Positions 16,108-59,188 of a stretch of DNA of 64,000 nt are shown piece after piece. The position numbers and the translations under genes are program-made. Position 1 is the first letter of the stretch; every line of letters starts with the position of its first letter. Under the pieces are notes generated by a model, which saw only the letters and a list, made by a program, of their open reading frames with translations, was not told the origin of the DNA and did no database searches. Source of the DNA: Candidatus Aenigmatarchaeota archaeon (GTDB lineage Archaea; Aenigmatarchaeota; Aenigmatarchaeia; JACPZZ01); assembly GCA_016180965.1 (NCBI GenBank), contig JACPAF010000001.1:223513-287512 (forward strand), read 5' to 3'.

Positions 16108-16123
16108 TTCTTTTTTTAGTCCA

Positions 16124-16951: not shown

Positions 16952-16987
16952 AAGCAAGATTTAAGATTTGGAGGAGTAACTAATACT

Positions 16988-17584: not shown

Positions 17585-17659
17585 GAATTGCAAAACTTGC
17601 AAAGTTTGATCAAAAGTGAGTTTGTCAAGGAATAAAAGCTCGAAAGAAGAATTGATATA

Positions 17660-18151: not shown

Positions 18152-18215
18152 CCGTACGGGATGAAAAAAAAACAAAATCGATAATTTGTATAAATAAAAC
18201 TATGGAAGAATTTCA

Positions 18216-18761: not shown

Positions 18762-18794
18762 GGTTTTAAATACGTCGGAGAATAATCGTAGATA

Positions 18795-21277: not shown

Positions 21278-21676
21278 CTAGGCCTGTTTTTTGAAATCTT
21301 CAAGCATTTTCCTGACTTCCGAGATTGTTACGAATTGTGATTTAATCGGGTTGATCAGGTCTATGAAACCCTGTATTTCGCGAAGCTCTGTTTTTGTCGA
21401 TGCGCGTTCCATTTGTTTTGATAATTTCCGGGTGTCGTCTTCGATCTTAGACACGCGGTTTGCCAGTTCGTCTATTTTTGCGTTCAATTTGTCAGTCGAC
21501 AGTTTTGCCTGTTTGAACTGCTCAACCACGCTTTGGTCTATGTTCGATAACGTCGATTCCGAACCGCTCATCTTTTGTTCTACCAATCGCAACCGTTTAG
21601 AGTTATCATTGAAACGGCGTATCAACTCCCCGATTACTGCTTGCACGTTGGCTGGTTTCTTGTCGAAGACGGCCAT
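21278..21676 (-). CDS. coiled-coil protein, divergently transcribed from the pilus ATPase
   Basis: 132 aa, heptad-rich (KLNAKIDELANRVSKIEDDTRKLSKQMERAS). Confidence 0.45.
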   Translation of the reverse strand: MAVFDKKPANVQAVIGELIRRFNDNSKRLRLVEQKMSGSESTLSNIDQSVVEQFKQAKLSTDKLNAKIDELANRVSKIEDDTRKLSKQMERASTKTELREIQGFIDLINPIKSQFVTISEVRKMLEDFKKQA

Positions 21677-23984: not shown

Positions 23985-23988
23985 TAAT

Positions 23989-26061
23989 ATGTCGGATGAA
24001 AGGAAAAAGATAGACGAGGAGGAACTTGCGCGCATCGCGCGCGATTACCAGACAAAAGTGTTCGATGAGGATAAACCCGAAAAAAACGAGCAGAACTTTT
24101 TGTCGCTTGACTACAAAACGTTCAAAACCGAGGAGAGGGGTTCTAAAAAATCCCTTGGCAATTATGAAAAGCTGTGCGCTATTTCGGAGAAAATATTAAA
24201 GGTCGAGCCTTCGAAGGGTTCTGAAGAACATCTGCGCAAGGAAATAGATTTTACTAACCTACAGTGCGCACCTTCGAGCGTAACGTCGGCAGCATTTTTG
24301 TCCACGATAATGCTGCTTGTCATTTCCCTTGTTTTTATTTTGCTGGGCGCAGTCCCGATATTTGTAGGATTGACGATGCTAATTTTTTCCATGATATCCG
24401 GAGTTTACGTCTACGGTTATCCGTCGAAACGCGCCAAAGATTTCCGCGTTAAGGCGTCGGAGGAAATAGTATTGTCGATAGTTTACATGGTCATATCGAT
24501 GCGTATCTCGCCCAATTTGGAAAATGCTGTGAAATTTGTAGCAACGAATTTAACCGGCCCGCTTGCCTTGGATTTCCGCAAATTGCTGTGGGACATTTAC
24601 ATGCGGAAAGAGGAAAGCATCGATAAGGCGCTGGGCACGTACATAGACGCGCGATGGAAAAACGAGAACGAGGAATTTTCTTCGGCTTTGACATTAATAC
24701 GCAATTCGATAGACCAGCCTGAGAAGAAACGTCTTGCAATGTTGGACGAGGCTGTTGATGTGATATTAAAAGGCACGAAAGAAAGGATGAGCCATTATGC
24801 ACAGAATCTGCGGATGCCTTTGCTGATAATACATGCGATGGGCATTTTGCTGCCGATAATGGGATTGGTGATGTTCCCGGTATTAGTTTTGTTTTTATCC
24901 AATATTGTGCAGCCGTACATGCTGTTTTTGGGTTATGACGTGTTTTTGTTTTTGGGATTGTACTGGTACACGTCAAGCGTATTGGCAACGAAACCGCCGA
25001 CGCTTTCTAAACCTGATGTTTCAAAACATCCGGACACGCCAAGAGAAGGATATTTCCGCGCTCACGTTTTCGGGAAAAAACTGGAGATAAAAACAATCAT
25101 ATTGCCGTCCATACTTTTCGCAGTTCTGTTTTTCATAGGCTATAATGGAATGGTTTCCGGAGCAAGTTCGTTTGAACGCGTGATTTATTCGACTGTAATA
25201 ATTGCGTCTATTTCGCTTTCGATATCTCTGTACGGTTTCCTTGAAAGTTTCCAGCGTACGAGCGTACGGCGCAAAGTCATTGGAGTTGAAGGCGAGTTTG
25301 CGGAGGCGATTTTCCATTTAGGCAACCAATTGTCTTCAGGCACGCCAATTGAAAATGCGATAGATAAAAACCAGGAGAAGATTCGAGATTTGAGCATCTC
25401 CGATTTTTTCGGGCGTATTGTGCAGAATATTAAAAGAATGGGCATGACATTCGAGCAGTCTATATTCGATAAAAATTACGGGGCCGTTTGGTACTACCCG
25501 TCGAGCTTAATAATTTCCGTGATGCGCGTTGTCGTTGAGGCGGTAAGGAAGGGCGTTTACAATGCGTCGCAATCGATGCTGTCCATTTCCCGCTATCTCA
25601 AGGACGTACATTCCATCGAAGAGGAGTTACGCGACATATTGGGCGAAAGCACGACGAGCATGAAATTTTTAAGCTCGATTCTTGCGCCGATGGTTGCCGG
25701 CGTTACGGTCACGATGGCGTTGATAATGCTCGATATAATCAAAGTTTTAGGAGACAAGCTCGCAGGATTAACGCAACAGGGCGTCGGGACTAGTTTGCCA
25801 TTGTTCTTGACAGTGGGTTTGGATAAAGGCGGCGTGACTGCGGAAATATTCCAGCTCGTGGTCGGCATATACATGATTGAAGTCGCGGGTTTGTTGTCGT
25901 ATTTCGTCAGCAAAATAGAGACGGGCGAAGATAAAATAAATCTTTACCACACATTATCTATCAATATGTTAATTTCATTGATAGTCTACGCGTTTTCGAT
26001 ACTTACCGTTTATTCCACTCTGGGTTCGCAGATACAAAACACAATACTAGGGGGCATTTGA
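23989..26061 (+). CDS. polytopic pilus platform protein (FlaJ/TadC/PilC-like, T2SS-F domains)
   Basis: 690 aa with at least nine TM helices, immediately downstream of the ATPase. Confidence 0.7.
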   Translation: MSDERKKIDEEELARIARDYQTKVFDEDKPEKNEQNFLSLDYKTFKTEERGSKKSLGNYEKLCAISEKILKVEPSKGSEEHLRKEIDFTNLQCAPSSVTSAAFLSTIMLLVISLVFILLGAVPIFVGLTMLIFSMISGVYVYGYPSKRAKDFRVKASEEIVLSIVYMVISMRISPNLENAVKFVATNLTGPLALDFRKLLWDIYMRKEESIDKALGTYIDARWKNENEEFSSALTLIRNSIDQPEKKRLAMLDEAVDVILKGTKERMSHYAQNLRMPLLIIHAMGILLPIMGLVMFPVLVLFLSNIVQPYMLFLGYDVFLFLGLYWYTSSVLATKPPTLSKPDVSKHPDTPREGYFRAHVFGKKLEIKTIILPSILFAVLFFIGYNGMVSGASSFERVIYSTVIIASISLSISLYGFLESFQRTSVRRKVIGVEGEFAEAIFHLGNQLSSGTPIENAIDKNQEKIRDLSISDFFGRIVQNIKRMGMTFEQSIFDKNYGAVWYYPSSLIISVMRVVVEAVRKGVYNASQSMLSISRYLKDVHSIEEELRDILGESTTSMKFLSSILAPMVAGVTVTMALIMLDIIKVLGDKLAGLTQQGVGTSLPLFLTVGLDKGGVTAEIFQLVVGIYMIEVAGLLSYFVSKIETGEDKINLYHTLSINMLISLIVYAFSILTVYSTLGSQIQNTILGGI

Positions 26062-26555
26062 TGAGCGCTTCCGATCAACCAAGGTTTTTGTTCTGGCTAG
26101 TCACTGCGTTCATAATGGCGCTCACGCTTTACGGCGTTGCGTCCTTGCTCTTGCCAAGATTGATAAGGTTTAACCAACTGCCCGAATCAGGCGAGTTGTA
26201 CGTGGACAGCGCCGACGCGCTTTCGACTAGGATTGCGTACAGCATGTGTAATTTGTGGCTCGCGCGCGACAGTTACAAAACCGGTTTTAGCAGCACGTCC
26301 CAGTACAAGTCCGTTTCCGCTTCGGTTGATAAAAACACAGTTGCATCGAAGTTATTCGATTCTGATTGCAAGGATTTCATTTTCAACAAACAATGGACAT
26401 ATACGGGCGACGAGATAGATGCGGATAAAAAAATCTATAACGTGGAAATATCTTTGGAACCGAATACCATAATGATTCCGGGGAGCGGTGAATCTCCATC
26501 AGTCATACTGAATAACGATAACAGAAAGATAATAGTAAATGTGAAAGAGAAATGA
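26061..26555 (+). CDS. membrane-anchored protein translationally coupled to the platform gene
   Basis: Start ATG overlaps the TGA of the platform gene (TGATG). N-terminal TM helix FLFWLVTAFIMALTLYGVASLLL. Confidence 0.45.
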   Translation: MSASDQPRFLFWLVTAFIMALTLYGVASLLLPRLIRFNQLPESGELYVDSADALSTRIAYSMCNLWLARDSYKTGFSSTSQYKSVSASVDKNTVASKLFDSDCKDFIFNKQWTYTGDEIDADKKIYNVEISLEPNTIMIPGSGESPSVILNNDNRKIIVNVKEK

Positions 26556-26564
26556 GATGATTTG

Positions 26565-26798
26565 ATGAATGTGTTAAAGGGCCAGATAGAATCCGAGGCT
26601 GCGAAAACGCTTTTCCTAGGCATACTGGCTTTGGTGGCGTTGGCGGTTATCGTGGCTGTAATATTTGCGTTTCAAGGCCTTTCGTCGGGAGCCAATTTAC
26701 CGAGCGTGTGCGATGTGGGCGGGGGGCTTGTGGATAAAACTGTGTGTTTGCCGGCGCGTGCAACGGCCTGGGTTTACAGCCATACCATCGGGCGATAA
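26565..26798 (+). CDS. small pilin-like protein (class III signal peptide)
   Basis: MNVLKGQIESEAAKTLFLGILALVALAVIVAVIFAF: KG-Q cleavage motif followed by a hydrophobic helix. Confidence 0.5.
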   Translation: MNVLKGQIESEAAKTLFLGILALVALAVIVAVIFAFQGLSSGANLPSVCDVGGGLVDKTVCLPARATAWVYSHTIGR

Positions 26799-26799
26799 A

Positions 26800-27036
26800 A
26801 TGAATAAATGTAAAAAAATTGGCGATGATATGTTAAACAAAAAAGGGATAACAAGCGCAATGCTGATCATTCTCGGATCCATAGCGGCAGGTTTGATAGT
26901 CCTTTTGGTAGTGATAGCTTCTTTGGATGAAAAAACAGGGCTGGTAGCATTGGCAATAGCGATAGGCAAGAGCATATGCGGTTTCATCGCAACAGTTATC
27001 ATAGGCGGTTTCGGATTGGCCATATGCAATATCTGA
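26800..27036 (+). CDS. small pilin-like protein
   Basis: MNKCKKIGDDMLNKKGITSAMLIILGSIAAGLIVLLVVIASL. Alternative ATG at 26830. Not in the track as a separate ORF. Confidence 0.45.
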   Translation: MNKCKKIGDDMLNKKGITSAMLIILGSIAAGLIVLLVVIASLDEKTGLVALAIAIGKSICGFIATVIIGGFGLAICNI

Positions 27037-27078
27037 ATGATATTTTATCTTAACGGACGAATAATCAAGAGGCATAAC

Positions 27079-28593
27079 ATGGTGAAAAAAAGAAAAGGAA
27101 TGGACGCAGCCGTGCTCAGTCTTGCGCTGGGCGTTGTAATACTTCTTGTTGTTTTAGGTGTTATTGTCGGGTTAAACACATCAGGTTCGTTCAAGGATTT
27201 TCTTGCCAAAGTTCCTTGGTTGAATAAAATTGTTCCGGTTGATGACACCAGTGATGGAGGCGGCGGCGGGCCAGGAGGAGGTTCTGTCGTAGCGCCGCCG
27301 GGCAAGCCATCGGGCGATGTGGTATATTTAGTCGCAGCCAGAAAAAGCACATCCACTGACCGCAGCCTTCGAGTTAAAATTTCCGACGGTGTTCCATCGG
27401 GCGAAAGCATTAAGTACAATTTCAAGAAAGGCGACACTTTGGAGTATGATGTTTATCTTCCTTTGAAGACTCCATGTACGGGCGGCATGGGTTTGGTTGT
27501 AACCGCAAATGGAAAAGACATAGACCTCGGCGACGACAATAAATGGGTAGATTCGACCGGGAAGGTTTCTGGTGGGTTGAAGAACTGCAATCCGGATCCG
27601 AAGAAGGTTGTTACGGAAAGCGATCTGACACCATACACCTATGACAAGAAACAATGGTATCATCGTGTTATTCCAATACCCGATGTATATGCCGGCGCAG
27701 CCACTCTGAAAGAAGTCAGATTATTGATGAACGGCGGCACGCCTTATGCTATGTACATTGCGGTTTATGACAATATCATTATAAAATCACCGGTCAACGG
27801 AAAAGATTATATCATATACAAGGACGGCGCTCCAAAATTCAGCGAAATAGATTGCGGTTCTGCGTTTGGTACAAAATGCAATTTCGATGAGGATAAAACG
27901 AAAGTTATAATCAGGAAACCAGCTAGCATCACATTGGAATACGACATCAAATCGGTTGCCGGCGAGATATTGAAGTTATCGGCGATAAGCGACGGCGGAG
28001 GATGCAGCTGGTTTGATAGCAGCGGATGCCAGTGGCTTTATTTGAAGGCGTTTGAATTGGGTTCTGCGTATACAGTCCAGCCGGGCGACATTGTTGAATA
28101 TGACGTTTATCTCGGAAAATGCGCCAAAGAGGTCGGCGGCATAGATTTGCGTGATAAGAGCGGTTCGATTAAGTGGAGTAATATGAAAGATTATTACTGG
28201 GACAACATGTATGACTGGGACAGCACGAAGATAATATCCGGCAGACCGGATGATTCGGGCATGGACCTAGGCACGAAAGCCGGCGAAATCGCATGCCTGA
28301 AATGGTACCACAGAAAACTTCCAGCTGCGCCGAATATGTGGGGTAAAGCCGTCGAAATTGTAGATTTGGCGATAGGATACGATGCGGGCGAGAATGAGCA
28401 AGTGAATGTTTATTATGACAACTTACAGATAACGGACGGCATCGGGCAGGTCAAGGCGTTTTATCCTGGCGGTGTGGATATAGTTCTCTACCAGTTTGAT
28501 GAGAAGAACGACAACGGCGGAATACGGGCGTACAAAAAAGACTCGGTTTCATTGACAAAGATAAACCCGGCAGACATTGATCACCCGACGTAA
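27079..28593 (+). CDS. large pilin-like surface protein (504 aa) with class III-type N-terminus
   Basis: MVKKRKGMDAAVLSLALGVVILLVVLGVIVGL, then a Gly-rich linker GGGGGPGGG and a Cys-containing beta-rich domain. AAGAGG Shine-Dalgarno before ATG 27079. Confidence 0.6.
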   Translation: MVKKRKGMDAAVLSLALGVVILLVVLGVIVGLNTSGSFKDFLAKVPWLNKIVPVDDTSDGGGGGPGGGSVVAPPGKPSGDVVYLVAARKSTSTDRSLRVKISDGVPSGESIKYNFKKGDTLEYDVYLPLKTPCTGGMGLVVTANGKDIDLGDDNKWVDSTGKVSGGLKNCNPDPKKVVTESDLTPYTYDKKQWYHRVIPIPDVYAGAATLKEVRLLMNGGTPYAMYIAVYDNIIIKSPVNGKDYIIYKDGAPKFSEIDCGSAFGTKCNFDEDKTKVIIRKPASITLEYDIKSVAGEILKLSAISDGGGCSWFDSSGCQWLYLKAFELGSAYTVQPGDIVEYDVYLGKCAKEVGGIDLRDKSGSIKWSNMKDYYWDNMYDWDSTKIISGRPDDSGMDLGTKAGEIACLKWYHRKLPAAPNMWGKAVEIVDLAIGYDAGENEQVNVYYDNLQITDGIGQVKAFYPGGVDIVLYQFDEKNDNGGIRAYKKDSVSLTKINPADIDHPT

Positions 28594-28624
28594 CGCGTAA
28601 TAATACCGTTTTACAAATACATTT

Positions 28625-28975
28625 ATGACCTTTTCCAAACGACGAAAAGAAAATAGAATGGGCATAGCCGAGTATAATTTCGCCTTGCTGATGGGGCTGG
28701 TAATTGCGCTGGTGATGCTGGCAGTTTATCTCGGCTGGATAAAGGGGAGCGGTGAAAACGTTGAGCGCGAAAGAAACCAAATGGTTGCGGCAGCAGGATG
28801 TTTGGCGGACAATTCATGCGCCAAACTGAGCAGCGACAAATTTTGCATAAACACTTATGAAGGAAAGAATGAGTGCGGCTGCTGGGCATGGATGGGAATT
28901 GACGGCAATGCGGGCTGCGGACCTGGCAAAAGATGCGTTTCGGAACGGGGGACGAATTATGGAAAATGTGTTTAA
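28625..28975 (+). CDS. small Cys-rich pilin-like protein
   Basis: RMGIAEYNFALLMGLVIALVMLAVYLGW, then a Cys-rich domain CINTYEGKNECGCWAWMGIDGNAGCGPGKRC. Confidence 0.45.
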   Translation: MTFSKRRKENRMGIAEYNFALLMGLVIALVMLAVYLGWIKGSGENVERERNQMVAAAGCLADNSCAKLSSDKFCINTYEGKNECGCWAWMGIDGNAGCGPGKRCVSERGTNYGKCV

Positions 28976-29153
28976 GGGACAAAGCAGCGACAACGTACTG
29001 ATGCTGGCTTTGGTTGTCGTGGGCTTGTTGATTATCCTCGGCGCCGGGATATTTATCGTGGCAGTCGTCGGCAAATCCGCGGGATTAAATTCCGTCCCGC
29101 TGATCGGAGACGCGTTGTGCGACCTGATGAAAGGGTTGCGGGTGGAGTGTTAA
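28959..29153 (+). CDS. small pilin-like protein (KGQ class III motif)
   Basis: MENVFKGQSSDNVLMLALVVVGLLIILGAGIFIVAVV. GGGGGA Shine-Dalgarno. In-frame internal start of track ORF 28857-29153. Overlaps the previous gene by 17 nt in another frame. Confidence 0.45.
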   Translation: MENVFKGQSSDNVLMLALVVVGLLIILGAGIFIVAVVGKSAGLNSVPLIGDALCDLMKGLRVEC

Positions 29154-29202
29154 CTATTAACATCTTTTATATTTTTCAAAATTCATATTTAACTTGTTTT
29201 GA

Positions 29203-29631
29203 ATGCCGGAACGTGAAATTAACCTTGCGCAATTTGTGATGATAGGCATTATACTCCTTGCTGTGATACTTGGAATAGTTTTCGTTTTCATTGTTCCAAA
29301 TATCAACAAAACAAAAGAGAGCGGGATGCTTGATTTTGCCTGCACGGCTTACCAGGGCGACATCGGATGCAATAACAAGGCGTGCGGTGCCGACTATACC
29401 GATGAGGGATGTGAAAAACTTTTGCGAGGCGTTTCCATGGACATCAAAAATGAAAAAATAATATTGTGGACGCAATGCGATGGCGCGGGCATAACTGAGG
29501 CCAAAAGCTGTCATTTAAGATGCTGCGGGATGGCGATAGCCGGGCGCGGCGACCCTTGCAACGATGAGACTGTCAAATGCGCGAGCGGGCTGAAATGCGA
29601 TTTGTCTACCAGATCTTGCATAGCAGCTTAG
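29203..29631 (+). CDS. Cys-rich pilin-like protein
   Basis: N-terminal hydrophobic helix LAQFVMIGIILLAVILGIVFVFIV, then 14 Cys (CTAYQGDIGCNNKACGADYTDEGC...CHLRCCG...C...C...C). Confidence 0.45.
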   Translation: MPEREINLAQFVMIGIILLAVILGIVFVFIVPNINKTKESGMLDFACTAYQGDIGCNNKACGADYTDEGCEKLLRGVSMDIKNEKIILWTQCDGAGITEAKSCHLRCCGMAIAGRGDPCNDETVKCASGLKCDLSTRSCIAA

Positions 29632-29654
29632 TTTATTTTACCGAAGATGAAATT

Positions 29655-29999
29655 ATGGTTGTGCGAAAAAAAGGAATGATGATTGTCGAGCTGATGGTCA
29701 TTGTGGTGTTAGCCGTAATAGTATTGGCGGTTTTAATCGGGATTATAATTTTGGGCGGGCAGCAGCCGACAAGCGATTTAGCGAAACAAACTTTAGTGCG
29801 TTCTTGTTGCCAATTAAACATGCCGTTATCCTGCAGCAACACGCAGAACGTGAATTGCATTGTTTCCAAGGAATTAGAAGCCGGTTTCGATTGCACGCCA
29901 ATCGACGGCAGCCCGTGCAAAAAAACTTTAGTGGAAATCGCCGGCAAAGTTGGCATATCTGACGTGTCTGGAGTCAAAACGTTCTGCGGGTGCGGATAA
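29655..29999 (+). CDS. type IV pilin-like protein with bacterial-style G/MMIVE motif and Cys-rich C-terminus
   Basis: MVVRKKG|MMIVELMVIVVLAVIVLAVLIG has Glu at +5 after Gly. C-terminus ...KTFCGCG. Confidence 0.55.
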   Translation: MVVRKKGMMIVELMVIVVLAVIVLAVLIGIIILGGQQPTSDLAKQTLVRSCCQLNMPLSCSNTQNVNCIVSKELEAGFDCTPIDGSPCKKTLVEIAGKVGISDVSGVKTFCGCG

Positions 30000-30034
30000 A
30001 ATCCAATTTAATAAGGATTTACGAATAATATTTG

Positions 30035-32749
30035 ATGTTGACAGAAATTAAACAAGTCAAATTTCATTCTGAATCGAGAAAAGGTTTTGGCGAAGATCAG
30101 GTTTTTCTCCTTGTTGGGATATTGATTTTGGTAATAACATCCTACATGATTTACATGCTGATAGGCGGACCGACGTGCGACGATTTGGCCAAACGAACTG
30201 CGAACAACATTAAAGTCGCGGTCGACTCTGTCGCGACAACGGGGACGTACACAAAAGATTCTCCGTATACTACGTATGCGATGCTGTGCCAGAACAAAGT
30301 TGGAGATCCTTTAACATTGAACCCATTCCAATATAGAGTGTTTTCTGCGCCCGAATACATGATCTACTGGGAGCATTTTCCAAACGCGCCGAACAACATT
30401 GTTGAAGGATTGTACAAATTCGATGAGAGTTATCCGTTCACTAAAAACACTGCGCAGATAATAGGGATAACATTGGCTACTTCATTTATCAGCGGTACAT
30501 TTTCGTCGTTGAAAGCTGCGAAAAACCTTGGGATTACAGATGAAGTTTTAGCTAAAACCGAAGGGACGAAGATGGGCGATGCGATCAGGCTGTTTGGAAA
30601 AACGAAAGACGCTGTAATGGCGCCTTTCACATACCCGGTGAGGGGTATTAAATATTTGCTGAGCTTGCCGGGCAAAGGCATGAAGGCCTTATACACAATT
30701 ACGGGCCTTAAGGGGATTGTTGACGACGGGGTCAAGTACATAACAAGCAAGACTGCACCCAAAATATTTGGGCACCAGGTCAGCCTCGGATTCCTGGCGT
30801 CGATGGCGGACAACGGCTTGATCGAGGCGTCGAACGTCGGGGAAGAACTGGCGGTAAATATTATCAAAGTCACCGACGACGCGACAGGCGAGGTTATTGA
30901 AAAGGCTGTTGTGCCAGTGGGCAGGAGGGCAGAACTGAAAACAGTTGTTGACGGGTTGATCGGGAGCGCAGACGATGCGGAAAAACAGGCCGGGCTGGCG
31001 CTGAAAAGATATTTCGCCTATACCGACGACGATTTTGCAAAATCCCTCGGAAGTTCGCAATCAAAGTTTGAGGATATAATACTGAAATCGGACGTTGATG
31101 ATAAAGGATTTTACGGGTTGGTCAGCGGGGCTTCAAAAGCTGCTGAAGAACAATTTGACGCGAATGCGAAAATCATGGCATCAAGGTATGGTTTATACTC
31201 GTCGCGGCCGATAACCTCGTTTTTTGAACAGAGCGGGATAACGAAGTTTTCAAACAAAATCACCGCAACGGACGTTTTCAGGAGGATGGATTTTTTTGTA
31301 ACAGACGACGCTGGTAAAGCTGTGTTGAAACCGGAAATGCTCGAGAAGATACAGAGCAGTTTCAAGGAATTGAAAATACAAACGCAGCTTACCGACCCGG
31401 ATAAAATTACTGACGCGACGGGGCGCTTTTTCACGAGCAGCGAATCCATAGTTGCGGGCGCGGAAACGGATACGGCCATGCTGTCGTACGCGGAAACTTT
31501 TTTGAAGAACGCAAAGGACGGGCCGGCCACCGGAATAAAATTGGACGCGTTGGAACATTTCTTCAAAGGGACAGCATCGGACGATGAGATAGCCAGCATA
31601 TCCAGCAAATTTTCTACCGGATATTTGCAGGAAATGAAAGATGCTGGAGTAAGCCAGGAAATCATAGATTCCGCTTCCAAAAAACTTTCCACCGCTAATT
31701 ACGGCAGGAGGCTGTTGAGGGACTATTCTTCGGAATTGAAGCTTGCCCAGGGCGTTACTGTTGATACCAATGAAGTTTACGAGATTGCAAAGCTTTCCGC
31801 GGCATGGAAGCGCGAACCGGAGCAGTTAGCTTTGATGGCGGATGAAAAGTATACTTTCATACCTTATGCAATTTATGAAAAAATTGGAGGATGGAGCCCG
31901 AAAGCCACAAGCAAATTCATAAAAGTCAATATCGAATCGTACGGTTTGAATGAGATGGAAAACAATTTGAAATACCTTTATCTTAAATCTCCGAATGCCG
32001 GATGCGAATCAAACACGGTCTGTTTAAACCAGAAGGGGGTTGAACAAAAAAAATCCGACGTTTCCGAGGATCAGGTGAAGGATTATGAGACGATGTATGC
32101 TGTCTCGAAAAATGTCATGGTGCGCTTGGATCGAGGTGGTTTTACGTCCCCTATAGGAGCGGGAATAGGCGCTTTCTCTTTTGACAAGGAACCGCGGTTT
32201 CATTTGGTGTCGCCATGCCTTGCGAAATTAAGCGTTTACGAGGACGCTGACAATCCTACTGACGGCGAGACCGGAAGACCGCTGGTGAAAGTCAATGTTG
32301 ATCCGTGCCCTGTTACAGGCCATTCAAACTATTGTTATTTCCCAACAAGCAAATTCAACGAAATGGCCGCAGGTTTTTACGGTTCGTTAGCATGTTCCAT
32401 TGTCGCTGACATAGGGAAAGCCGCCCTGTTCGGTTTTGTTTTACAGCCAGCGTGTTCTGGAATACAAATTAAAACCGAATACGATACTACTTGGCCTTTC
32501 TCGCCTTTCCAGCCTTTGAAAAGCGCGGATATGAACGTATTGAATTGCGAAATACAAAAAAATCCGAAGGATGCGGCGAAATTAATGGTGACGGCGTGCT
32601 GCGGACTTGCGAAATGCGACGGCAGTTATGTATGCTCTGGAAATAATTACGCGGACAAGAACCAGGCAATTTGCGGAAAGGACAAGTGCACAATGGGAGA
32701 TTTGTCCAAAATGTCCGGGCTGGATTACAAATCCGCGTGCGGATGCTGA
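30035..32749 (+). CDS. giant pilin-like surface protein (904 aa) with class III-type N-terminus and Cys-rich C-terminal domain
   Basis: MLTEIKQVKFHSESRKGFGEDQVFLLVGILILVITSYMIYML. The last about 250 aa hold 20 Cys and end ...KSACGC. Confidence 0.6.
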   Translation: MLTEIKQVKFHSESRKGFGEDQVFLLVGILILVITSYMIYMLIGGPTCDDLAKRTANNIKVAVDSVATTGTYTKDSPYTTYAMLCQNKVGDPLTLNPFQYRVFSAPEYMIYWEHFPNAPNNIVEGLYKFDESYPFTKNTAQIIGITLATSFISGTFSSLKAAKNLGITDEVLAKTEGTKMGDAIRLFGKTKDAVMAPFTYPVRGIKYLLSLPGKGMKALYTITGLKGIVDDGVKYITSKTAPKIFGHQVSLGFLASMADNGLIEASNVGEELAVNIIKVTDDATGEVIEKAVVPVGRRAELKTVVDGLIGSADDAEKQAGLALKRYFAYTDDDFAKSLGSSQSKFEDIILKSDVDDKGFYGLVSGASKAAEEQFDANAKIMASRYGLYSSRPITSFFEQSGITKFSNKITATDVFRRMDFFVTDDAGKAVLKPEMLEKIQSSFKELKIQTQLTDPDKITDATGRFFTSSESIVAGAETDTAMLSYAETFLKNAKDGPATGIKLDALEHFFKGTASDDEIASISSKFSTGYLQEMKDAGVSQEIIDSASKKLSTANYGRRLLRDYSSELKLAQGVTVDTNEVYEIAKLSAAWKREPEQLALMADEKYTFIPYAIYEKIGGWSPKATSKFIKVNIESYGLNEMENNLKYLYLKSPNAGCESNTVCLNQKGVEQKKSDVSEDQVKDYETMYAVSKNVMVRLDRGGFTSPIGAGIGAFSFDKEPRFHLVSPCLAKLSVYEDADNPTDGETGRPLVKVNVDPCPVTGHSNYCYFPTSKFNEMAAGFYGSLACSIVADIGKAALFGFVLQPACSGIQIKTEYDTTWPFSPFQPLKSADMNVLNCEIQKNPKDAAKLMVTACCGLAKCDGSYVCSGNNYADKNQAICGKDKCTMGDLSKMSGLDYKSACGC

Positions 32750-33225
32750 ATAAAATGAAAGGAATCATAATAGTAAGGGATTTCATCATTTTTCTTTCAG
32801 AGCTTGGAATATTACTGTTAAGCATACTTTTCATAACAACAGCGGGCGCAGCCATGGGCGAGTTTGTTTTTAATTTTGATTCGCGGCTTGCTTCAGAGAC
32901 TTTATTCGGGTTCCATACGGCTGCCGACATGGCTCCGAGCTATGAGGCGAGTTTTATAATGGCTTCAAACCCGTACACAATGAAAATATCCAAAGACGGA
33001 AATGATAATTTTATTTTCATAAACTCCACCAGGGAACTCTTTAACTTAGCCCACACGGCGCAGGTAAAAATATTGCCACCCAGAAAACTTTTCCTTGTAA
33101 ACTCCGGACCGAATGAAATAATATTGATAGAAAAAAAAATGGACGAAAAACACAACTGGCTGATTGGTGTGAAGAAAACCGACGGTAAAACCGTGACTTT
33201 GGTGAACGAGCAAGAGGTGAAATGA
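32743..33225 (+). CDS. pilin-like protein
   Basis: MLNKMKGIIIVRDFIIFLSELGILLLSILFITTAGAAMG. Start overlaps the stop of the 904 aa gene. Confidence 0.45.
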   Translation: MLNKMKGIIIVRDFIIFLSELGILLLSILFITTAGAAMGEFVFNFDSRLASETLFGFHTAADMAPSYEASFIMASNPYTMKISKDGNDNFIFINSTRELFNLAHTAQVKILPPRKLFLVNSGPNEIILIEKKMDEKHNWLIGVKKTDGKTVTLVNEQEVK

Positions 33226-33665
33226 TGTCTACGTTCATGGCTGAAAATTTACTTAAAATCGTTGCGCTGGTTGTCAGCATATTGGGCATACTAGCCACAT
33301 TAGTCCAATTCCAATCGTTCAGTTTGGAGATACACGGCAAGCAGGTTGACAGGGAGTATTTAATTTTTTCACAATACATGGCTGGTGCGCCTTTCCTTAC
33401 GTACGATAAACCGGATTACAGGAAAGGGGTTTTAGACGCCGACAAATTGAACGCATTGGACAACGGCTCCTTCGCGCAAAAATTCAGCTTCGCCGACCTG
33501 ACAAAATATCTTATCATCATAGCAACGGATTCTAGTACGTGGATTTTCGGGGACGATTCAATACTGAAAGAAAAAAACAGGGTGTGGGCGCATCCGGTTG
33601 CGGTAAAGATGTCAGATACCATAATACCTGGTACGATGAAAGTTTATGTGCCGAAGGCTGGTTGA
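33222..33665 (+). CDS. pilin-like/membrane-anchored protein
   Basis: MMSTFMAENLLKIVALVVSILGILATLVQF. AAGAGGTGA Shine-Dalgarno. Start overlaps the previous stop. Confidence 0.4.
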   Translation: MMSTFMAENLLKIVALVVSILGILATLVQFQSFSLEIHGKQVDREYLIFSQYMAGAPFLTYDKPDYRKGVLDADKLNALDNGSFAQKFSFADLTKYLIIIATDSSTWIFGDDSILKEKNRVWAHPVAVKMSDTIIPGTMKVYVPKAG

Positions 33666-33666
33666 A

Positions 33667-34242
33667 ATGAATAACCTTTTTAGAAAAAAGCTTAACCAAA
33701 AAATGAAAGGAGACGTGTGGTACGTTTCGACTTTCTTTTTTCTCGTTTCGCTCTTTTCCGTAACAATGATAATGCTGTTTTCAATGAGCATCGCGCGTCT
33801 GATTGTCGGAAATTTGATAGATTACACGGTCCACGTGAGCTTTTTGGATTTTTCCCTGAACACGGAAAACGCTTTGTTGTCGGGGATGGAAATTAAAATG
33901 GACCCGAACGACACTTCGATGAAGACCATATTATCAAATGCCGCGTTCCAATGGAGCGGGGATCCTGGTTGGGATAAAAATGTTTTTGCGGGCGGAAAAA
34001 TGTACGATGCGGCCCAGCGTTCAAAGGACATCTTTGATAAATTGGTGCAGGGGCCGTACATTTTTGAATTGCGAAAGCAATTCGATGCGTCCGACGCGAG
34101 AAGGATAATATTTGCCGAGCGTAATGCGGAGTCGATTAAAAGCGATCCGGAAGTTGCTGAGATGGAATTTTATTTGCCGTATCCGGCGTGCGGCGGTTGC
34201 AGTAAAATTGCAGTTTACAGACTGTATTCAACGGTGAAATAA
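33667..34242 (+). CDS. pilin-like protein
   Basis: MNNLFRKKLNQKMKGDVWYVSTFFFLVSLFSVTMIMLFSM: basic residues, KG, then a hydrophobic helix. Confidence 0.45.
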   Translation: MNNLFRKKLNQKMKGDVWYVSTFFFLVSLFSVTMIMLFSMSIARLIVGNLIDYTVHVSFLDFSLNTENALLSGMEIKMDPNDTSMKTILSNAAFQWSGDPGWDKNVFAGGKMYDAAQRSKDIFDKLVQGPYIFELRKQFDASDARRIIFAERNAESIKSDPEVAEMEFYLPYPACGGCSKIAVYRLYSTVK

Positions 34243-35562
34243 ATGAGGGGAAGCATTTACACGTTCATGGGAAGCATCGTGATGGTTATGATAGGCGTAG
34301 GGATAATCTGGTGGTTTAGGTCTGTTGTTCCTTCGGAAGCTTTCATAGTTTCTGAAAGGCACAGGGAAAGTTTTTCCGCGTTGAATTATCTGGAGCTGTC
34401 AAGAAAATCCATGGAAGAAGCAATTATGATTTATGCGCAGACCGGCGCGACGAAAGCCGGCTCAGCGGGCGGGCTGGATGCTACAGCCCAGCAGAAGGAT
34501 AAAATTGCGATATGGAAAAATGCGCCCGACGCGACGACGATAAAGGACACGCTGCAAAGATACATAGTGGACGAGATTGCGATTTTGCAGCAACATGAGA
34601 TCAAAGGCAAATTCCTGGCAATTGATTACGGAAGTTTGAACATTCAGATCAATCCTGACAGCGATGACTTTTCTAAATCTGAAAAGTTTTATGTGAAAGG
34701 CGAGAAGGAAATAAAAGTTTCCAAGAACCTGCAGACGCAGGCCATAAAAATCTCAACAAGCTTGAAGGGCTACATAGACGACGAGATTAAATTAAAATAT
34801 TTCGCGCTATACGACGCGGCGAAAAAGTTTTTCGAGGGCGGAGAGCCCGTTAACAGGATAAACAGCGCATTTAACGGCGTTAACACGGTTGGGAGCAAAA
34901 CGAATAGTGCCTGTCCGTCTGCCAGCGTTGGATGCGTAAGCAAGGCATGCCCTGTTTTCACGACAACATTCCCGACGCCGCCGGAGGTTTTGAACGAGAA
35001 AACAGACTTTTCCAAACTGCTTGTCAAAGCGGGCGGTATAACAGGAGCAATCGCAGGCGCACCATTTTCGTTATTCAATGCCAAGTTTGAAAACTATGCA
35101 TCAGCGTTCTTGGCTGGCTACGGGTCATCAGACATAACACAACCAACAGGCAGTTGCGGCTTTTCATGCACTTACCTGGAACCGAACCCTTGCAAAACAA
35201 CAGTGCCTGATTGCGCGCCTGCGGCAGACTCGGACAGCCCACCAGTTTGCACCCCAAAATGCGTACCCGGTTTTGATACTATAACTTTATCGTGTTCGGC
35301 AGAGACTAAAACAACAACTATAGCTTTCACATTCCTCGCCGACGCGTATGAAAAATATTCTTCCGAAGACCCGTCAGGGATTGTTCCGTCGACGAGTATC
35401 CATGACGTCGCTGTTGTCTCAAAACCATTACCTTACGATACGCTCAAGTTTAATTTCATGACCCACAGCTGTACGACGATAGATAAAAACGCGGTTGTTA
35501 CGGAGCTAAAGGATAATATTGAATCATGCCAATTGCCTCCGAGCGTTACGAATCATGTTTAG
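34243..35562 (+). CDS. large pilin-like protein (439 aa), Cys-rich
   Basis: MRGSIYTFMGSIVMVMIGVGIIWWF (RG-S motif). The C-terminal half holds 16 Cys. Confidence 0.5.
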   Translation: MRGSIYTFMGSIVMVMIGVGIIWWFRSVVPSEAFIVSERHRESFSALNYLELSRKSMEEAIMIYAQTGATKAGSAGGLDATAQQKDKIAIWKNAPDATTIKDTLQRYIVDEIAILQQHEIKGKFLAIDYGSLNIQINPDSDDFSKSEKFYVKGEKEIKVSKNLQTQAIKISTSLKGYIDDEIKLKYFALYDAAKKFFEGGEPVNRINSAFNGVNTVGSKTNSACPSASVGCVSKACPVFTTTFPTPPEVLNEKTDFSKLLVKAGGITGAIAGAPFSLFNAKFENYASAFLAGYGSSDITQPTGSCGFSCTYLEPNPCKTTVPDCAPAADSDSPPVCTPKCVPGFDTITLSCSAETKTTTIAFTFLADAYEKYSSEDPSGIVPSTSIHDVAVVSKPLPYDTLKFNFMTHSCTTIDKNAVVTELKDNIESCQLPPSVTNHV

Positions 35563-35615
35563 AGTGAAACCAATGTATTTAAGCCAATTCGAGGAAATAG
35601 ATAATAAGGTCAAAA

Positions 35616-35915
35616 ATGAAGCGCAAGGGTATCTCTTTACCAATAGACATGCTCGTTATCTTGGCGATAGCTGTCATTATTCTAATTGCTGTTGTGGCTG
35701 TTTTCATGGGCGTATGGAGTCCTTTTGCGACGAACCAACAGGCAAGGGCGAATTTCAACAAAGAATGCCAGGTTTTAGTTAATACGGGCTGTACGCAAAC
35801 TCCTTCGCTGGCGTTATGCAAAGCGGCTAATGGGATTGTTTTGAACAAAGAAACTTGCGATAGTGATCCAGACAGACTTGCGGTCAAGAAAGGATGCGGC
35901 TGCCCGGGATTGTGA
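35616..35915 (+). CDS. type IV pilin (candidate major pilin), C-terminal GCGCPG
   Basis: MKRKGISLPIDMLVILAIAVIILIAVVAVFMGVW...KKGCGCPGL. Tandem paralog of the next gene. Confidence 0.65.
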   Translation: MKRKGISLPIDMLVILAIAVIILIAVVAVFMGVWSPFATNQQARANFNKECQVLVNTGCTQTPSLALCKAANGIVLNKETCDSDPDRLAVKKGCGCPGL

Positions 35916-35919
35916 TCTT

Positions 35920-36315
35920 ATGGTTAAAAGAAAAGGTATTTCGCTCCCAATTGATATGTTAGTTGTTTTGGCAATCGCTGTCATAATTTTAATCGCGATC
36001 GTTGCCGTTTTCATGGGTGTCTGGAATCCATTTTCGACGAACCAGCAATCACGGGCGAATTTCAACAAGGCTTGCCAGATATTAGTCAACACCGGCTGCG
36101 CAGGAGATCCGTCAGTGGATTTGTGCAAAGCTGCGAATGGAATTGTTTTGAATAAGGACACTTGCGATAGTGATCCGGATAAACTTGCGGTTAAAGTCGG
36201 GTGCGGCTGTCCGGGCGTTTCCGGAACAACGGCAACTGCTCCGCCGGCTGGTGACAGTGGTTCTCCAGGCGCACCGGGTCCGGGAGATGTGGGTGACAGC
36301 GGGCCTTCTAGATAA
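35920..36315 (+). CDS. type IV pilin paralog with Gly/Ser/Pro-rich C-terminal tail
   Basis: MVKRKGISLPIDMLVVLAIAVIILIAIVAVFMGVW...VGCGCPGVSGTTATAPPAGDSGSPGAPGPG. Confidence 0.65.
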   Translation: MVKRKGISLPIDMLVVLAIAVIILIAIVAVFMGVWNPFSTNQQSRANFNKACQILVNTGCAGDPSVDLCKAANGIVLNKDTCDSDPDKLAVKVGCGCPGVSGTTATAPPAGDSGSPGAPGPGDVGDSGPSR

Positions 36316-36370
36316 TGGATTTTAAATGTTTAGAATGTTGAATTAGGTTGTTGATTAAGGGTAATTGAAA

Positions 36371-58678: not shown

Positions 58679-58717
58679 AAATGTTTATAAGTATCTGGCC
58701 GACAATTAATAATTAAG

Positions 58718-59179: not shown

Positions 59180-59188
59180 ACACTAAAA

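What the first reader, a model, noticed from the sequence alone, without database searches (positions are those of the whole stretch)
27079..32749. Pilin-like surface proteins of 504 aa and 904 aa with pilin-type N-termini
27079-28593 and 30035-32749 both start with a basic stretch, KG and a hydrophobic helix like their small neighbours, but carry very large ectodomains. The first has a Gly-rich linker; the second has a long alpha/beta region and a Cys-rich C-terminal domain. They may be pilus-tip or pilus-presented adhesins, the most plausible ligand-binding components of the locus.
Basis: inference. Interest (0 to 1): 0.65.

Follow-up and report, generated by a model that had tools for sequence, protein, structure and literature searches.

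The report
Two giant pilin-like proteins, DPANN pilus operon
Two large surface proteins with pilin-type front ends sit in a type IV pilus operon of a tiny symbiotic-type archaeon (Aenigmatarchaeota): one looks like an exchangeable adhesin cassette, and the other belongs to an unannotated protein family found next to the pilus motor genes in most related loci examined.

Summary
ORFs 27079-28593 (504 aa) and 30035-32749 (904 aa) are real, conserved genes of a Candidatus Aenigmatarchaeota MAG. They lie in an 18-gene, one-strand type IV filament operon (ATPase, platform protein, about 12 pilin-like proteins). Both start with basic residues, KG and a hydrophobic helix, and the motif is conserved in their orthologues.

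The 504-aa protein has a highly conserved pilin-like anchor (85% identity), a Gly-rich linker and two copies of a rare beta-sandwich module (45% identity). The module also occurs in secreted bacterial proteins. In a sister MAG the same anchor carries an unrelated ectodomain. In more distant DPANN loci the same operon slot holds unrelated large proteins. This fits an exchangeable adhesin, although no lectin family matched.

The 904-aa protein belongs to an unannotated family (93 clusters). It lies 1-4 kb downstream of the ATPase and platform genes in about 20 loci. A disulfide-rich two-part core is interrupted by a variable insertion of about 515 aa. A sister clade ends in a discoidin/CBM32-like domain. 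It looks more like a conserved large minor pilin (tip or priming scaffold) than a free adhesin. Only about half of the family keeps a peptidase-type site.

Cleavage, filament incorporation and ligand are untested. Verdict: new variant of a known kind; moderate interest.

The parts
21711..23984 (+). Type IV filament assembly ATPase (757 aa, long N-terminal extension)
   Evidence: Pfam T2SSE 6.4e-19; NCBIfam FlaI/TadA-type 2-3e-41. 88-93% identical in sister MAGs.
23989..26061 (+). Single-gene platform protein (690 aa, polytopic)
   Evidence: Weak T2SSF hit, 1.9e-4. Eight hydrophobic peaks. Always adjacent to the ATPase.
26058..27036 (+). Three small membrane/pilin-like genes: g165 (26058-26555), s78 (26562-26798), s69 (26830-27036)
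   Evidence: s78 has LKG|Q and s69 has KKG|I followed by a hydrophobic helix. Conserved in L001-L006.
27079..27237 (+). 504-aa protein, residues 1-53: leader MVKKRKG, hydrophobic helix, conserved juxtamembrane motif FKDFLxKVPWLNKI, invariant NTS sequon
   Evidence: 85% mean pairwise identity. Near-invariant in A2. This is the only part shared with the L004 slot protein.
27238..27303 (+). 504-aa protein, residues 54-75: Gly-rich low-confidence (probably flexible) linker, replaced by a Cys-rich insert in orthologues
   Evidence: AF2 pLDDT < 50 over residues 48-73; alignment A2.
27304..27864 (+). 504-aa protein, beta-sandwich module copy 1 (residues 76-262)
   Evidence: AF2 all-beta. Module profile A4 domain hit 2.8e-60. 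Motif GDxLEYDV...KWYHR...YDNI.
27952..28569 (+). 504-aa protein, beta-sandwich module copy 2 (residues 292-497)
   Evidence: Both copies align to the single module of P0026. Domain hit 5.8e-68.
28625..29999 (+). Four small Cys-rich pilin-like genes: s116 (28625-28975), s64 (28959-29153), s142 (29203-29631), s115 (29655-29999)
   Evidence: KG/KA plus helix is conserved in orthologues, except s142. Equivalent small genes precede the 904-type gene in distant loci.
30035..30172 (+). 904-aa protein, residues 1-46: leader ...SRKG, hydrophobic helix, GGP break
   Evidence: K16 invariant and G17 at least 90% conserved in the clade. Kyte-Doolittle 2.59.
30173..30454 (+). 904-aa protein, N-module (residues 47-140): CDDLAK...LCQ...PEYMIYWEHFP...DESYPF
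   Evidence: 75% identity in the clade. Family-wide invariant C48, A52, C85, P106, Y108, P116.
30455..31996 (+). 904-aa protein, variable alpha/beta insertion (residues 141-654), Cys-free
   Evidence: 39% identity. Absent in subfamily P0028/29/31, where the C-module follows the N-module directly. AF2 pLDDT 70-89 over residues 240-610.
31997..32524 (+). 904-aa protein, C-module (residues 655-830): GCxSNxxCL, PRFHLVSPC, SNYCY, amphipathic helical hairpin, TTWPF
   Evidence: 68% identity. Invariant R700, P720, P727, C728, N765, Y766, C767, W820, P821. The hairpin is not TM-like family-wide.
32525..32749 (+). 904-aa protein, Cys-rich tail (residues 831-904, 9 Cys) plus stop codon
   Evidence: The sister clade has an F5/8-type-C-like domain at this position instead.
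32743..35562 (+). Four conserved accessory pilin-like/membrane genes: g158 (start 32743 or 32755, to 33225), g147 (33222-33665), g198 (33646-34242), g439 (34243-35562)
   Evidence: MKG/RG plus helix in g158, g198 and g439. g147-like genes follow the 904-type gene in distant loci.
35616..36315 (+). Two paralogous small pilins (99 aa at 35616-35915; 131 aa at 35920-36315), MKRKG|ISLPIDMLV...; candidate major pilins
   Evidence: Weak Pilin_N hit, 0.009. 71-89% identical in sister MAGs, the most conserved pilins of the locus.
36365..37561 (+). 398-aa protein at the end of the operon, probably secreted (N-terminal hydrophobic stretch resembling a Sec-type signal; by eye, no predictor run)
   Evidence: N-terminal hydrophobic stretch followed by AYSGAG. 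No family hit.

Best explanation
Both ORFs are components of one archaeal type IV filament (T4P/TFF) operon of a DPANN archaeon (Aenigmatarchaeota).

The 504-aa protein is a modular, pilin-anchored surface protein. It has a short basic leader ending in KG (inferred site for a class III signal peptidase), a strongly conserved hydrophobic alpha-1-type helix plus juxtamembrane motif, a flexible Gly-rich linker, and a tandem duplication of a rare extracellular beta-sandwich (jelly-roll-like) module. The conserved helix would dock it into the filament or the assembly platform. The modules project outward and bind a ligand, most likely a glycan or surface polymer of a host or substrate. The ectodomain is an exchangeable cassette on a constant anchor.

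The 904-aa protein belongs to a DPANN-wide, unannotated family encoded next to the ATPase and platform genes in most related loci examined. It has a pilin-like helix and a disulfide-stabilised two-part core (N-module plus C-module, about 280 aa). A lineage-variable insertion of about 515 aa and a lineage-specific C-terminal module are grafted onto this core. I propose it is a large minor pilin that sits at the tip, or in the priming complex, of the filament and acts as a scaffold presenting variable modules. Functionally this would resemble GspK/PilX or CofB/TcpB-type large minor pilins (own knowledge).

Shown: gene reality, N-terminal motif and its conservation, operon membership and synteny, domain boundaries, cassette swapping, family distribution.

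Inferred: cleavage, incorporation into a filament, tip location, ligand binding.
For: Operon context:
- T2SSE/FlaI-type ATPase and T2SSF-like platform lie immediately upstream on the same strand.
- Eleven clustered class-III-like N-termini occur in the locus, and they are conserved in orthologues.

504-aa protein:
- AF2 model (pTM 0.70): N-terminal helix, low-confidence (pLDDT < 50) linker, two beta-sandwich domains.
- Internal duplication: both halves align to the single module of P0026. Invariant module residues are Y38, G43, D44, E47, Y48, D49, G60, W118, R121, D156, N157.
- The module recurs in bacterial proteins with N-terminal hydrophobic, signal-like stretches. One is fused to a Cu_amine_oxidN1 domain. 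One lies beside pectate-lyase-like and GH172 genes.
- Three single-domain BFVD matches (191-237 aligned columns, probability 1.00; one is a named phage virion structural protein, two are unnamed); lower-ranked, low-probability hits include ConA-like-lectin, host-specificity and receptor-binding proteins.
- N-terminus 85% identical versus modules 45%.
- The L004 slot protein keeps only residues 5-52 (54% identity) and has an unrelated Cys-rich ectodomain, although the ATPases are 88% identical.
- Unrelated 513-689-aa proteins, several with an MKG/MKA start, helix and Gly/Pro-rich linker, occupy the same slot in L007, L008, L011, L016, L020 and the P0016 contig.

904-aa protein:
- 15 full-length Aenigmatarchaeota homologues. 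93 cluster representatives match in two stretches, the N-module and the C-module.
- It lies 1-4 kb downstream of the ATPase and platform genes in about 20 of 30 GTDB loci.
- Region identities are 0.75, 0.39, 0.68 and 0.65 for the N-module, insertion, C-module and tail. All 18 Cys lie outside the insertion.
- There are two insertion hot spots.
- The sister clade carries a C-terminal F5/8-type-C-like domain: 4 of 11 members hit PF00754, best E 1.9e-5; the best PDB sequence match is CBM32 structure 4a42.

Literature:
- DPANN T4P islands of 'dark-matter' pilins are described in PMC6393860.
- Archaeal 'system 2' loci with long ATPases, a single platform gene, many pilins and large adhesin-like proteins are described in bioRxiv 10.64898/2026.04.22.720090.
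Against: - No Pfam, NCBIfam or PDB-sequence match for either protein. Foldseek against PDB gave only generic or insignificant hits.
- The AF2 model of the 904-aa protein is poor in the conserved N- and C-modules, so a pilin fold is not shown.
- hhalign similarity between the 904-aa N-terminus and the neighbouring pilins is confined to the leader and helix (probability at most 41%) and vanishes without the helix.
- The 504-aa protein lacks a globular pilin head.
- Only 35 of 67 representatives of the 904-type family have a [KR][GAS] site.
- No class III signal peptidase gene was recognised in the 64-kb window.
- Universal conservation of the 904-type gene fits a machine part as well as a tip protein.
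- Nothing tests ligand binding.
Confidence: 0.55

Rival explanations
1. The 904-aa family is not a filament subunit. It is an uncleaved, bitopic membrane-anchored accessory or scaffold protein of the machine: a base, stator or envelope-spanning part. This would be comparable in logic to archaellum FlaF/FlaG or bacterial PilN/PilO (own knowledge).
For: It is present with the ATPase and platform genes in nearly every locus, including minimal ones that lack the large slot gene. About half of the family lacks a [KR][GAS] site and starts directly with the helix, e.g. MIKIPINILL or MIEQALDL. The N- and C-modules are far more conserved than the pilins.
Against: The KG/KA site is conserved 14/14 in the window's clade. 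The variable 515-aa insertion and the lineage-specific C-terminal modules, including discoidin-like domains, are typical of outward-facing, interaction-driven parts. The post-SNYCY hairpin is amphipathic, not TM-like (median Kyte-Doolittle 1.27 versus 2.81 for the N-terminal helix). The protein therefore has one anchor only, like a pilin.
Confidence: 0.28
2. The 504-aa protein (and its slot equivalents) is displayed near the cell surface on a short pseudopilus, in a 'bindosome-like' arrangement. It would serve as a substrate- or glycan-capturing protein rather than as an adhesin at the tip of a long pilus.
For: The architecture is a class-III-type leader, a helix, a flexible linker and a large binding-type ectodomain with no pilin head. 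The ATPase has a weak BasE (bindosome) hit, 4e-18. SPIII-anchored binding proteins on TFF machineries are discussed in bioRxiv 10.64898/2026.04.22.720090. A bacterial homologue of the module lies beside polysaccharide-degrading genes.
Against: No solute-binding-protein fold or family was detected. No ABC transporter lies next to the operon. The operon also encodes conserved candidate major pilins.
Confidence: 0.22
3. The N-terminal helices are plain signal anchors of unrelated membrane enzymes.
For: No peptidase gene was found in the window. There is no Pilin_N match for either protein.
Against: No enzyme family was hit in Pfam, NCBIfam or PDB. The invariant residues of the 904-type family are C, P, Y, W, N, A and one R, with no catalytic-type constellation. 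Both genes are embedded between pilin genes in an operon that is syntenic across DPANN. The N-terminus of the 504-aa protein is its most conserved segment, which is not expected for a simple anchor.
Confidence: 0.05

Closest known systems
Modular type IV pilins of Streptococcus sanguinis (PilB/PilC; glycan-binding minor-pilin complex, PMC9934059)
   Same: A pilin-type N-terminus carries a grafted extracellular binding module. The genes are encoded among the minor pilins of a T4P operon, and the proposed role is adhesion (for the paper; details of PilB/PilC are own knowledge).
   Different: Those are bacterial proteins with a complete pilin globular module plus recognised vWA or lectin modules. 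The 504-aa protein has only the helix and then a linker. Its modules match no known lectin family. The system here is archaeal.
Large minor (pseudo)pilins that cap or prime filaments: GspK/PilX and CofB/TcpB (own knowledge)
   Same: Each is the largest pilin-like subunit of its operon. Each is conserved together with the machinery, has extra domains inserted into or appended to a pilin core, and is proposed to sit at the tip and start assembly.
   Different: There is no sequence or detectable fold similarity. A pilin fold for the 904-type core is not shown. Half of the family lacks a canonical cleavage site. The size (620-1100 aa) and the two-part Cys-rich core are unlike any of these proteins.
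Archaeal TFF 'system 2'-type loci with large adhesin-like proteins (bioRxiv 10.64898/2026.04.22.720090; Makarova et al. DPANN islands, PMC6393860)
   Same: ATPase with a long N-terminal extension, a single platform gene, many pilins including some without SPIII motifs, and large adhesin-like proteins. DPANN loci are made largely of unannotated predicted pilins.
   Different: In the passages I retrieved by term search, those papers describe the loci in general terms; I found no family matching the 904-type core in those passages. I could not test arCOG or MacSyFinder membership of this locus.
Sulfolobus bindosome substrates (class III signal peptide sugar-binding proteins)
   Same: Class-III-type leader, hydrophobic helix and a large binding ectodomain, assembled by a dedicated TFF ATPase/platform pair. 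The ATPase gives a weak BasE hit.
   Different: There is no solute-binding-protein domain and no adjacent ABC transporter. The lineage and ectodomain folds are different.
F5/8 type C (discoidin, CBM32) carbohydrate-binding domains
   Same: Relatives of the 904-aa protein in a sister clade end in a domain with repeated sub-threshold matches to PF00754/PF22633 and to CBM32 structures.
   Different: All scores are below Pfam gathering thresholds. The window's own protein has a Cys-rich 74-aa tail at that position instead.

Membership tests
Archaeal type IV pilin-like proteins (class III signal peptide proteins) | Short basic leader ending in [KR]-[G/A/S], immediately followed by a hydrophobic helix of about 20 or more residues | tested here: met
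   Both proteins. Conserved in 6/6 orthologues of the 504-aa protein and 14/14 close orthologues of the 904-aa protein.
Archaeal type IV pilin-like proteins (class III signal peptide proteins) | Cleavage motif conserved across the whole protein family | tested here: inconclusive
   904-type family: only 35 of 67 representatives have [KR][GAS] before the helix. Slot equivalents of the 504-aa protein: present in L008 (KA), L011 and L016; absent in L007 and L020.
Archaeal type IV pilin-like proteins (class III signal peptide proteins) | Match to the Pilin_N (PF07790) profile | tested here: not met
   No Pfam hit for either protein at E <= 0.1. The neighbouring 99-aa pilin gives only 0.009. Pilins of the second cluster do match, at 2.6e-5.
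Archaeal type IV pilin-like proteins (class III signal peptide proteins) | Encoded with a T4P/TFF ATPase and platform protein | tested here: met
   Same strand, same operon. Synteny is kept in about 20 loci for the 904-type gene.
Archaeal type IV pilin-like proteins (class III signal peptide proteins) | Processing by a class III signal peptidase (PibD/FlaK/EppA type) present in the genome | not testable with these tools
   No A24-type gene was recognised among the multi-TM ORFs of the 64-kb window.
Archaeal type IV pilin-like proteins (class III signal peptide proteins) | Incorporation into a filament | not testable with these tools
   Needs experiment or a multimer structure prediction.
Modular pilins (pilin module plus grafted functional module) | Complete globular pilin module (alpha-1 helix packed on a beta-sheet) preceding the grafted module | tested here: not met
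   504-aa protein: the helix (residues 10-33) and a short helix (37-44) are followed directly by a low-confidence (pLDDT < 50) linker. 904-aa protein: N-module pLDDT is below 50, so the fold is unresolved.
Modular pilins (pilin module plus grafted functional module) | Grafted module belongs to a recognised binding or enzymatic family | tested here: not met
   No Pfam, NCBIfam or PDB-sequence hit. Foldseek gave only generic jelly-roll and phage structural-protein matches.
Lectin / carbohydrate-binding module families | Significant profile or fold match of the 504-aa beta-sandwich module to a CBM or lectin family | tested here: inconclusive
GspK/PilX-type minor pilins | Sequence or profile similarity to GspK/PilX families | tested here: not met
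   No NCBIfam, Pfam or PDB hit for the 904-aa protein or for the 42-sequence family profile.
F5/8 type C (discoidin/CBM32) | Pfam PF00754 match above the gathering threshold | tested here: not met
   Absent in the window protein. In the sister clade it is sub-threshold (best E 1.9e-5, 4 of 11 members).

The most novel reading that the evidence does not exclude
The 904-type family is the DPANN-specific host-contact device. In this reading it is a filament-tip (or pseudopilus-tip) protein whose conserved, disulfide-locked core and amphipathic Gly/Ala/Cys-rich helical hairpin engage, or even insert into, the envelope or membrane of the host cell. The exchangeable 504-type cassette would provide host specificity. 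The operon would then be the attachment or bridge-initiating machine of DPANN ectosymbionts rather than an ordinary adhesive pilus.
Probability: 0.07. Interest if true: 0.85.

Novelty: new variant of a known kind. Interest (0 to 1): 0.45.

Why it matters
DPANN archaea are thought to live attached to host cells, yet the molecules that recognise and hold the host are largely unknown. These lineages are mostly uncultivated.

This analysis gives two concrete candidates. The first is a hypervariable cassette protein on a constant pilin-like anchor, which is a plausible host- or substrate-specificity determinant. The second is an unannotated family of 93 clusters that marks one particular T4P-like operon type across Aenigmatarchaeota and other DPANN lineages.

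The family gives a searchable signature for that machinery through its invariant residues and the motifs PEYxIYxxFP, PRF[YH]xVSPC and SNYCY. It also gives defined domain boundaries for expression, structure prediction and binding assays.

If the tip-scaffold reading is right, archaeal pilus systems would be shown to use large minor pilins as bacteria do, but built from a different fold.

Tried and rejected
- Pfam and NCBIfam scans of both proteins and of the neighbouring accessory proteins gave no hits for the targets.
- Profile searches against PDB sequences with the 504-aa family, the 42-sequence 904-type family and the sister-clade C-terminal domain gave nothing significant. The only lead was a weak CBM32 match.
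- Foldseek against PDB. The 504-aa model gave only whole-chain double-jelly-roll look-alikes (mavirus capsid, IBDV VP2, laminin LG4-5; TM about 0.15, rmsd above 20 A). I rejected these as meaningless. The 904-aa model gave nothing better than E = 0.09.
- I tested a polytopic-membrane reading of the 904-aa protein (hydrophobic stretch 784-803) and rejected it. Across 65 relatives the hairpin has a median Kyte-Doolittle score of 1.27 with conserved charged residues, versus 2.81 for the N-terminal helix.
- hhalign of the 904-aa N-terminus against every small-pilin family of the locus found similarity only in the leader and helix (probability at most 41%) and none once the helix was removed. This cannot show homology.
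- hmmsearch of the 504-aa profiles against the slot-equivalent large proteins of distant loci found no similarity (E > 0.03).
- The search for a prepilin peptidase in the window failed. The six paralogous 5-TM ORFs upstream have no conserved Asp and no family hit.
- Two attempts to reach the contig beyond the window failed because no exact-sequence record exists for the split platform proteins.
- The enzyme reading was rejected for lack of any conserved catalytic-type residues.

Full report
**1. What is in the sequence**

The two ORFs exist exactly as described. 27079-28593 encodes 504 aa and 30035-32749 encodes 904 aa. Each is 100% identical over its full length to an NCBI 'hypothetical protein' (HYT71_01405 and HYT71_01430). 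Both come from a Candidatus Aenigmarchaeota (DPANN) metagenome-assembled genome, on a 316-kb contig.

The ORFs lie in a tightly packed, single-strand block from 21711 to 37561. The block opens with a 757-aa T2SSE/FlaI/TadA-type ATPase (Pfam 6.4e-19; NCBIfam about 3e-41). Next comes a 690-aa polytopic protein with a weak T2SSF match. Sixteen further genes follow.

Eleven of those genes begin with a short basic leader, [KR]G, and a hydrophobic helix. A six-frame scan of the whole window for that pattern found 21 hits. Eleven are these consecutive genes. Five belong to a second, canonical Pilin_N pilin cluster at 58.2-60.7 kb. Five are scattered hits, several of them internal starts within multi-TM ORFs.

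The KG (or KA) position is kept in the orthologues of nearly every one of these genes in six sister MAGs.

**2. The 504-aa protein**

*Domain layout.*
- Eight homologues align over the full length.
- The first 53 residues are almost invariant: RKG|MDAxVLxLALGVVxLLVVLGVIVGLNTSGxFKDFLxKVPWLNKI. Their mean pairwise identity is 85%.
- The rest of the protein is 29-46% identical.
- After the helix comes a Gly-rich stretch that AF2 models at low confidence (pLDDT < 50). In some orthologues it is replaced by a small Cys-rich insert.
- AF2 then predicts two all-beta sandwich domains (pTM 0.70).

*The beta-sandwich module.*
- The two domains are an internal duplication. Both align to the single copy in an unrelated protein, P0026 (2e-13 and 8e-13).
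- They share the motif GDxLEYDV...GG...W.D...KWYHR...YYDNI. The invariant residues include D44, E47, D49, D156 and N157 in module numbering.
- The module is rare. A profile search of 5.8 billion proteins found it only in Aenigmatarchaeota orthologues and a handful of bacterial proteins with N-terminal hydrophobic, signal-like stretches. One of these is fused to a Cu_amine_oxidN1 domain. Another sits beside pectate-lyase-like and GH172 genes.
- No Pfam, NCBIfam or PDB-sequence relative exists.
- Foldseek against PDB gave only generic double-jelly-roll look-alikes with TM about 0.15.
- Against viral models, three single-domain matches (191-237 aligned columns, probability 1.00) appeared: one named phage virion structural protein and two unnamed entries. 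Lower, low-probability ranks include ConA-like-lectin, host-specificity and receptor-binding proteins.
- 'Lectin-like' is therefore a reasonable inference from fold class, the acidic motif and context. It is not a demonstrated membership.

*Comparative evidence.*
- Within the close clade this is the most divergent gene of the operon. It is 26-45% identical where it aligns full-length, against 88-93% for the ATPase.
- In MAG L004 the protein in the same slot keeps only residues 5-52 (54% identity). Its ectodomain is an unrelated 350-aa Cys-rich region with no module hit.
- In more distant DPANN loci (L007, L008, L011, L016, L020 and the JGI contig of P0016), the same position holds large proteins of 513-689 aa. 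That position comes after four tiny membrane ORFs and before four to six small pilins.
- Several of these begin MKG or MKA plus a helix, followed by a Gly/Pro-rich linker. They have no detectable similarity to the 504-aa protein.
- A constant anchor with swappable cargo at a fixed operon position is the pattern expected of a specificity determinant such as an adhesin.
- The protein lacks a globular pilin head, so it is a pilin-anchored surface protein rather than a classical pilin. Its display mode is not decidable here: at a tip, along a filament, or on a short bindosome-like pseudopilus.

**3. The 904-aa protein**

*Family and distribution.*
- Fifteen full-length Aenigmatarchaeota homologues (35-59% identity) were found.
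- An exhaustive profile search found 93 cluster representatives (47 with E below 1e-10), each 620-1100 aa long.
- Most match in two separate stretches: profile positions 5-127 and about 670-820.
- A 42-sequence alignment leaves these invariant residues: C48, A52, C85, P106, Y108, P116 in the N-module, and R700, P720, P727, C728, N765, Y766, C767, W820, P821 in the C-module.

*A two-part core with two insertion hot spots.*
- In one subfamily (P0028, P0029, P0031 and others) the C-module follows the N-module directly, at residues about 170-290. Those proteins carry a long Lys/Glu-rich helical insertion later, inside the helical hairpin between SNYCY and WPG.
- Residues about 141-654 of the window protein are therefore an insertion into a conserved core of about 280 aa. 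This is the 'long alpha/beta region', modelled by AF2 with pLDDT 70-89 over residues 240-610.
- Region-wise identity in the close clade is 0.75 (N-module), 0.39 (insertion), 0.68 (C-module) and 0.65 (Cys-rich tail).
- All 18 cysteines lie outside the insertion.

*The hydrophobic stretch at 784-803.* It is amphipathic across the family (median Kyte-Doolittle 1.27 versus 2.81 for the N-terminal helix, with conserved Asp/Lys). The protein therefore has a single membrane-type helix.

*Synteny.*
- A GTDB-wide scan returned 30 loci. Almost all are Aenigmatarchaeota, with some Nanoarchaeota, Anstonellales and unclassified archaea.
- In about 20 of them the homologue lies 1-4 kb downstream of the ATPase and platform genes.
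- This includes minimal loci that have only tiny pilins and no large slot gene.
- The gene is thus a signature component of this operon type, not a variable add-on.

*C-terminal module.* A sister clade replaces the Cys-rich tail with a domain that gives repeated, sub-threshold F5/8-type-C (discoidin/CBM32) matches. Four of 11 members hit PF00754 (best E 1.9e-5), and the best PDB sequence match is CBM32 structure 4a42. This suggests that the distal end of the family is a site for binding modules.

*Caveats.*
- AF2 did not resolve the conserved modules (pLDDT below 50), so a pilin fold is not shown.
- hhalign similarity to the neighbouring pilins is limited to the leader and helix.
- Only 35 of 67 family representatives keep a [KR][GAS] site before the helix. 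The others start directly with the helix, for example MIKIPINILL... or MIEQALDL....
- In the window's clade the site is conserved 14/14.

**4. Mechanism**

*Best-supported reading (confidence about 0.55).* The operon builds a type IV filament.
- The two paralogous 99- and 131-aa proteins (MKRKG|ISLPIDMLV...) are the likely major subunits. They are 71-89% identical across MAGs and give a weak Pilin_N hit.
- The 904-type protein is a large minor pilin. Together with the adjacent small Cys-rich pilins, it would form a tip or priming complex and present variable modules.
- The 504-type protein is an exchangeable binding cassette, docked through its conserved helix.

*What is shown and what is inferred.*
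- Shown: gene reality, motifs and their conservation, operon synteny, domain boundaries, cassette exchange and family distribution.
- Inferred: cleavage at KG, filament incorporation, tip location and ligand binding.

*Rivals.*
- The 904-type protein may be an uncleaved membrane-anchored scaffold of the machine (confidence about 0.28).
- The 504-aa protein may be displayed in a bindosome-like way (about 0.22).
- Both may be membrane-anchored enzymes (about 0.05). This is disfavoured by the absence of catalytic-type conserved residues and of any enzyme-family hit.

**5. Comparison with what is known**

- The general picture is already in the literature. DPANN type IV pilus islands made of unannotated predicted pilins are described in PMC6393860.
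- Archaeal 'system 2'-type loci with long ATPases, a single platform gene, many pilins and large adhesin-like proteins are described in bioRxiv 10.64898/2026.04.22.720090.
- Modular bacterial pilins with grafted binding modules are established, for example in PMC9934059.
- Three things appear to be new, as far as these tools and the passages I read can tell. The first is the definition of the 904-type family, with its two-part Cys-rich core, two insertion hot spots and operon-signature behaviour across DPANN. The second is the anchor-plus-swappable-cargo organisation of the 504-type slot. The third is the rare duplicated beta-sandwich module.
- Neither protein passes a membership test for Pilin_N, GspK/PilX, any lectin/CBM family or classical modular pilins. 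They work like members of those classes by architecture and context only.

**6. Verdict**

The finding is real and reasonably interesting, but not surprising to a specialist. I rate it a new variant of a known kind, with interest about 0.45.

The most novel reading not excluded is that the 904-type protein is a DPANN host-contact or membrane-engaging tip device. That reading has a probability of about 0.07 and would be of high interest if true.

Noticed in passing
window 58223-60695 (+), 61982-63729 (-), and the right end of the window (- strand): A second type IV filament system. It has five paralogous canonical archaeal pilins (KG|[VL]SPL[IV]A[ST]VLL; Pilin_N 2.6e-5) and two split T2SSF platform genes (289 and 291 aa; 3.8e-16 and 8e-15). 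By eye, an ORF that looks like a KaiC/RecA-type ATPase runs off the right end of the window (no family search run). The genome therefore carries at least two distinct pilus-type machines.
   Followed up: partly
window 15190-19388 (+): Six tandem paralogous membrane proteins with about five TM segments each (163-305 aa; shared motif FYxFVLPWLLxFxIVYGIL). They lie about 2.3 kb upstream of the pilus operon, separated from it by several ORFs. They have no meaningful Pfam match (one sub-threshold DUF2663 hit) and no conserved Asp, so they are not prepilin peptidases. Function unknown.
   Followed up: partly
L004:7533-8750 (sister Aenigmatarchaeota MAG): The protein in the slot of the 504-aa gene shares only the N-terminal 48 residues (54% identity). 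Its ectodomain is a completely different Cys-rich region of about 350 aa. This is a clear domain-cassette replacement between genomes whose ATPases are 88% identical.
   Followed up: yes
L029 (AWOA01000066.1) and protein P0003: A contig filed under the bacterium 'Candidatus Calescibacterium nevadense' carries a 904-type gene together with the archaeal-type ATPase and platform genes. A 703-aa fragment that is 76% identical to the 904-aa protein is filed under 'Candidatus Uhrbacteria'. Both are probably mis-binned archaeal contigs.
   Followed up: no
window 27175-27183 (residues 33-35 of the 504-aa protein): The protein's only N-x-S/T sequon (NTS) sits at the end of the hydrophobic helix. N33 and T34 are invariant in the 8-sequence alignment, though two sister-MAG slot proteins (L004, L006) lack the sequon. 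It may be a conserved N-glycosylation site or part of the docking motif. The 904-aa protein has no sequon at all.
   Followed up: no
window 28625-28975 (s116): The window's copy has RMG before the helix, whereas the orthologues have [KR]KG or KA. This may be a substitution at the -2 position of the putative peptidase site.
   Followed up: no
L008, L011, L016, L019, L020, L023, L027, L030 (between the platform gene and the 904-type gene): Runs of very small ORFs (40-76 aa) that are little more than one hydrophobic helix, many starting MKG. They are conserved in order across distant DPANN loci. A minimal operon form consists only of these ORFs plus the 904-type gene.
   Followed up: partly
window 19916-20596 (-) and 21278-21676 (-): Two divergently oriented genes lie just upstream of the ATPase. 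One is a 226-aa protein with a Gln/Pro/Glu-rich N-terminal half. The other is 132 aa. By eye both look helical or coiled-coil-like (not tested). They were not analysed further.
   Followed up: no
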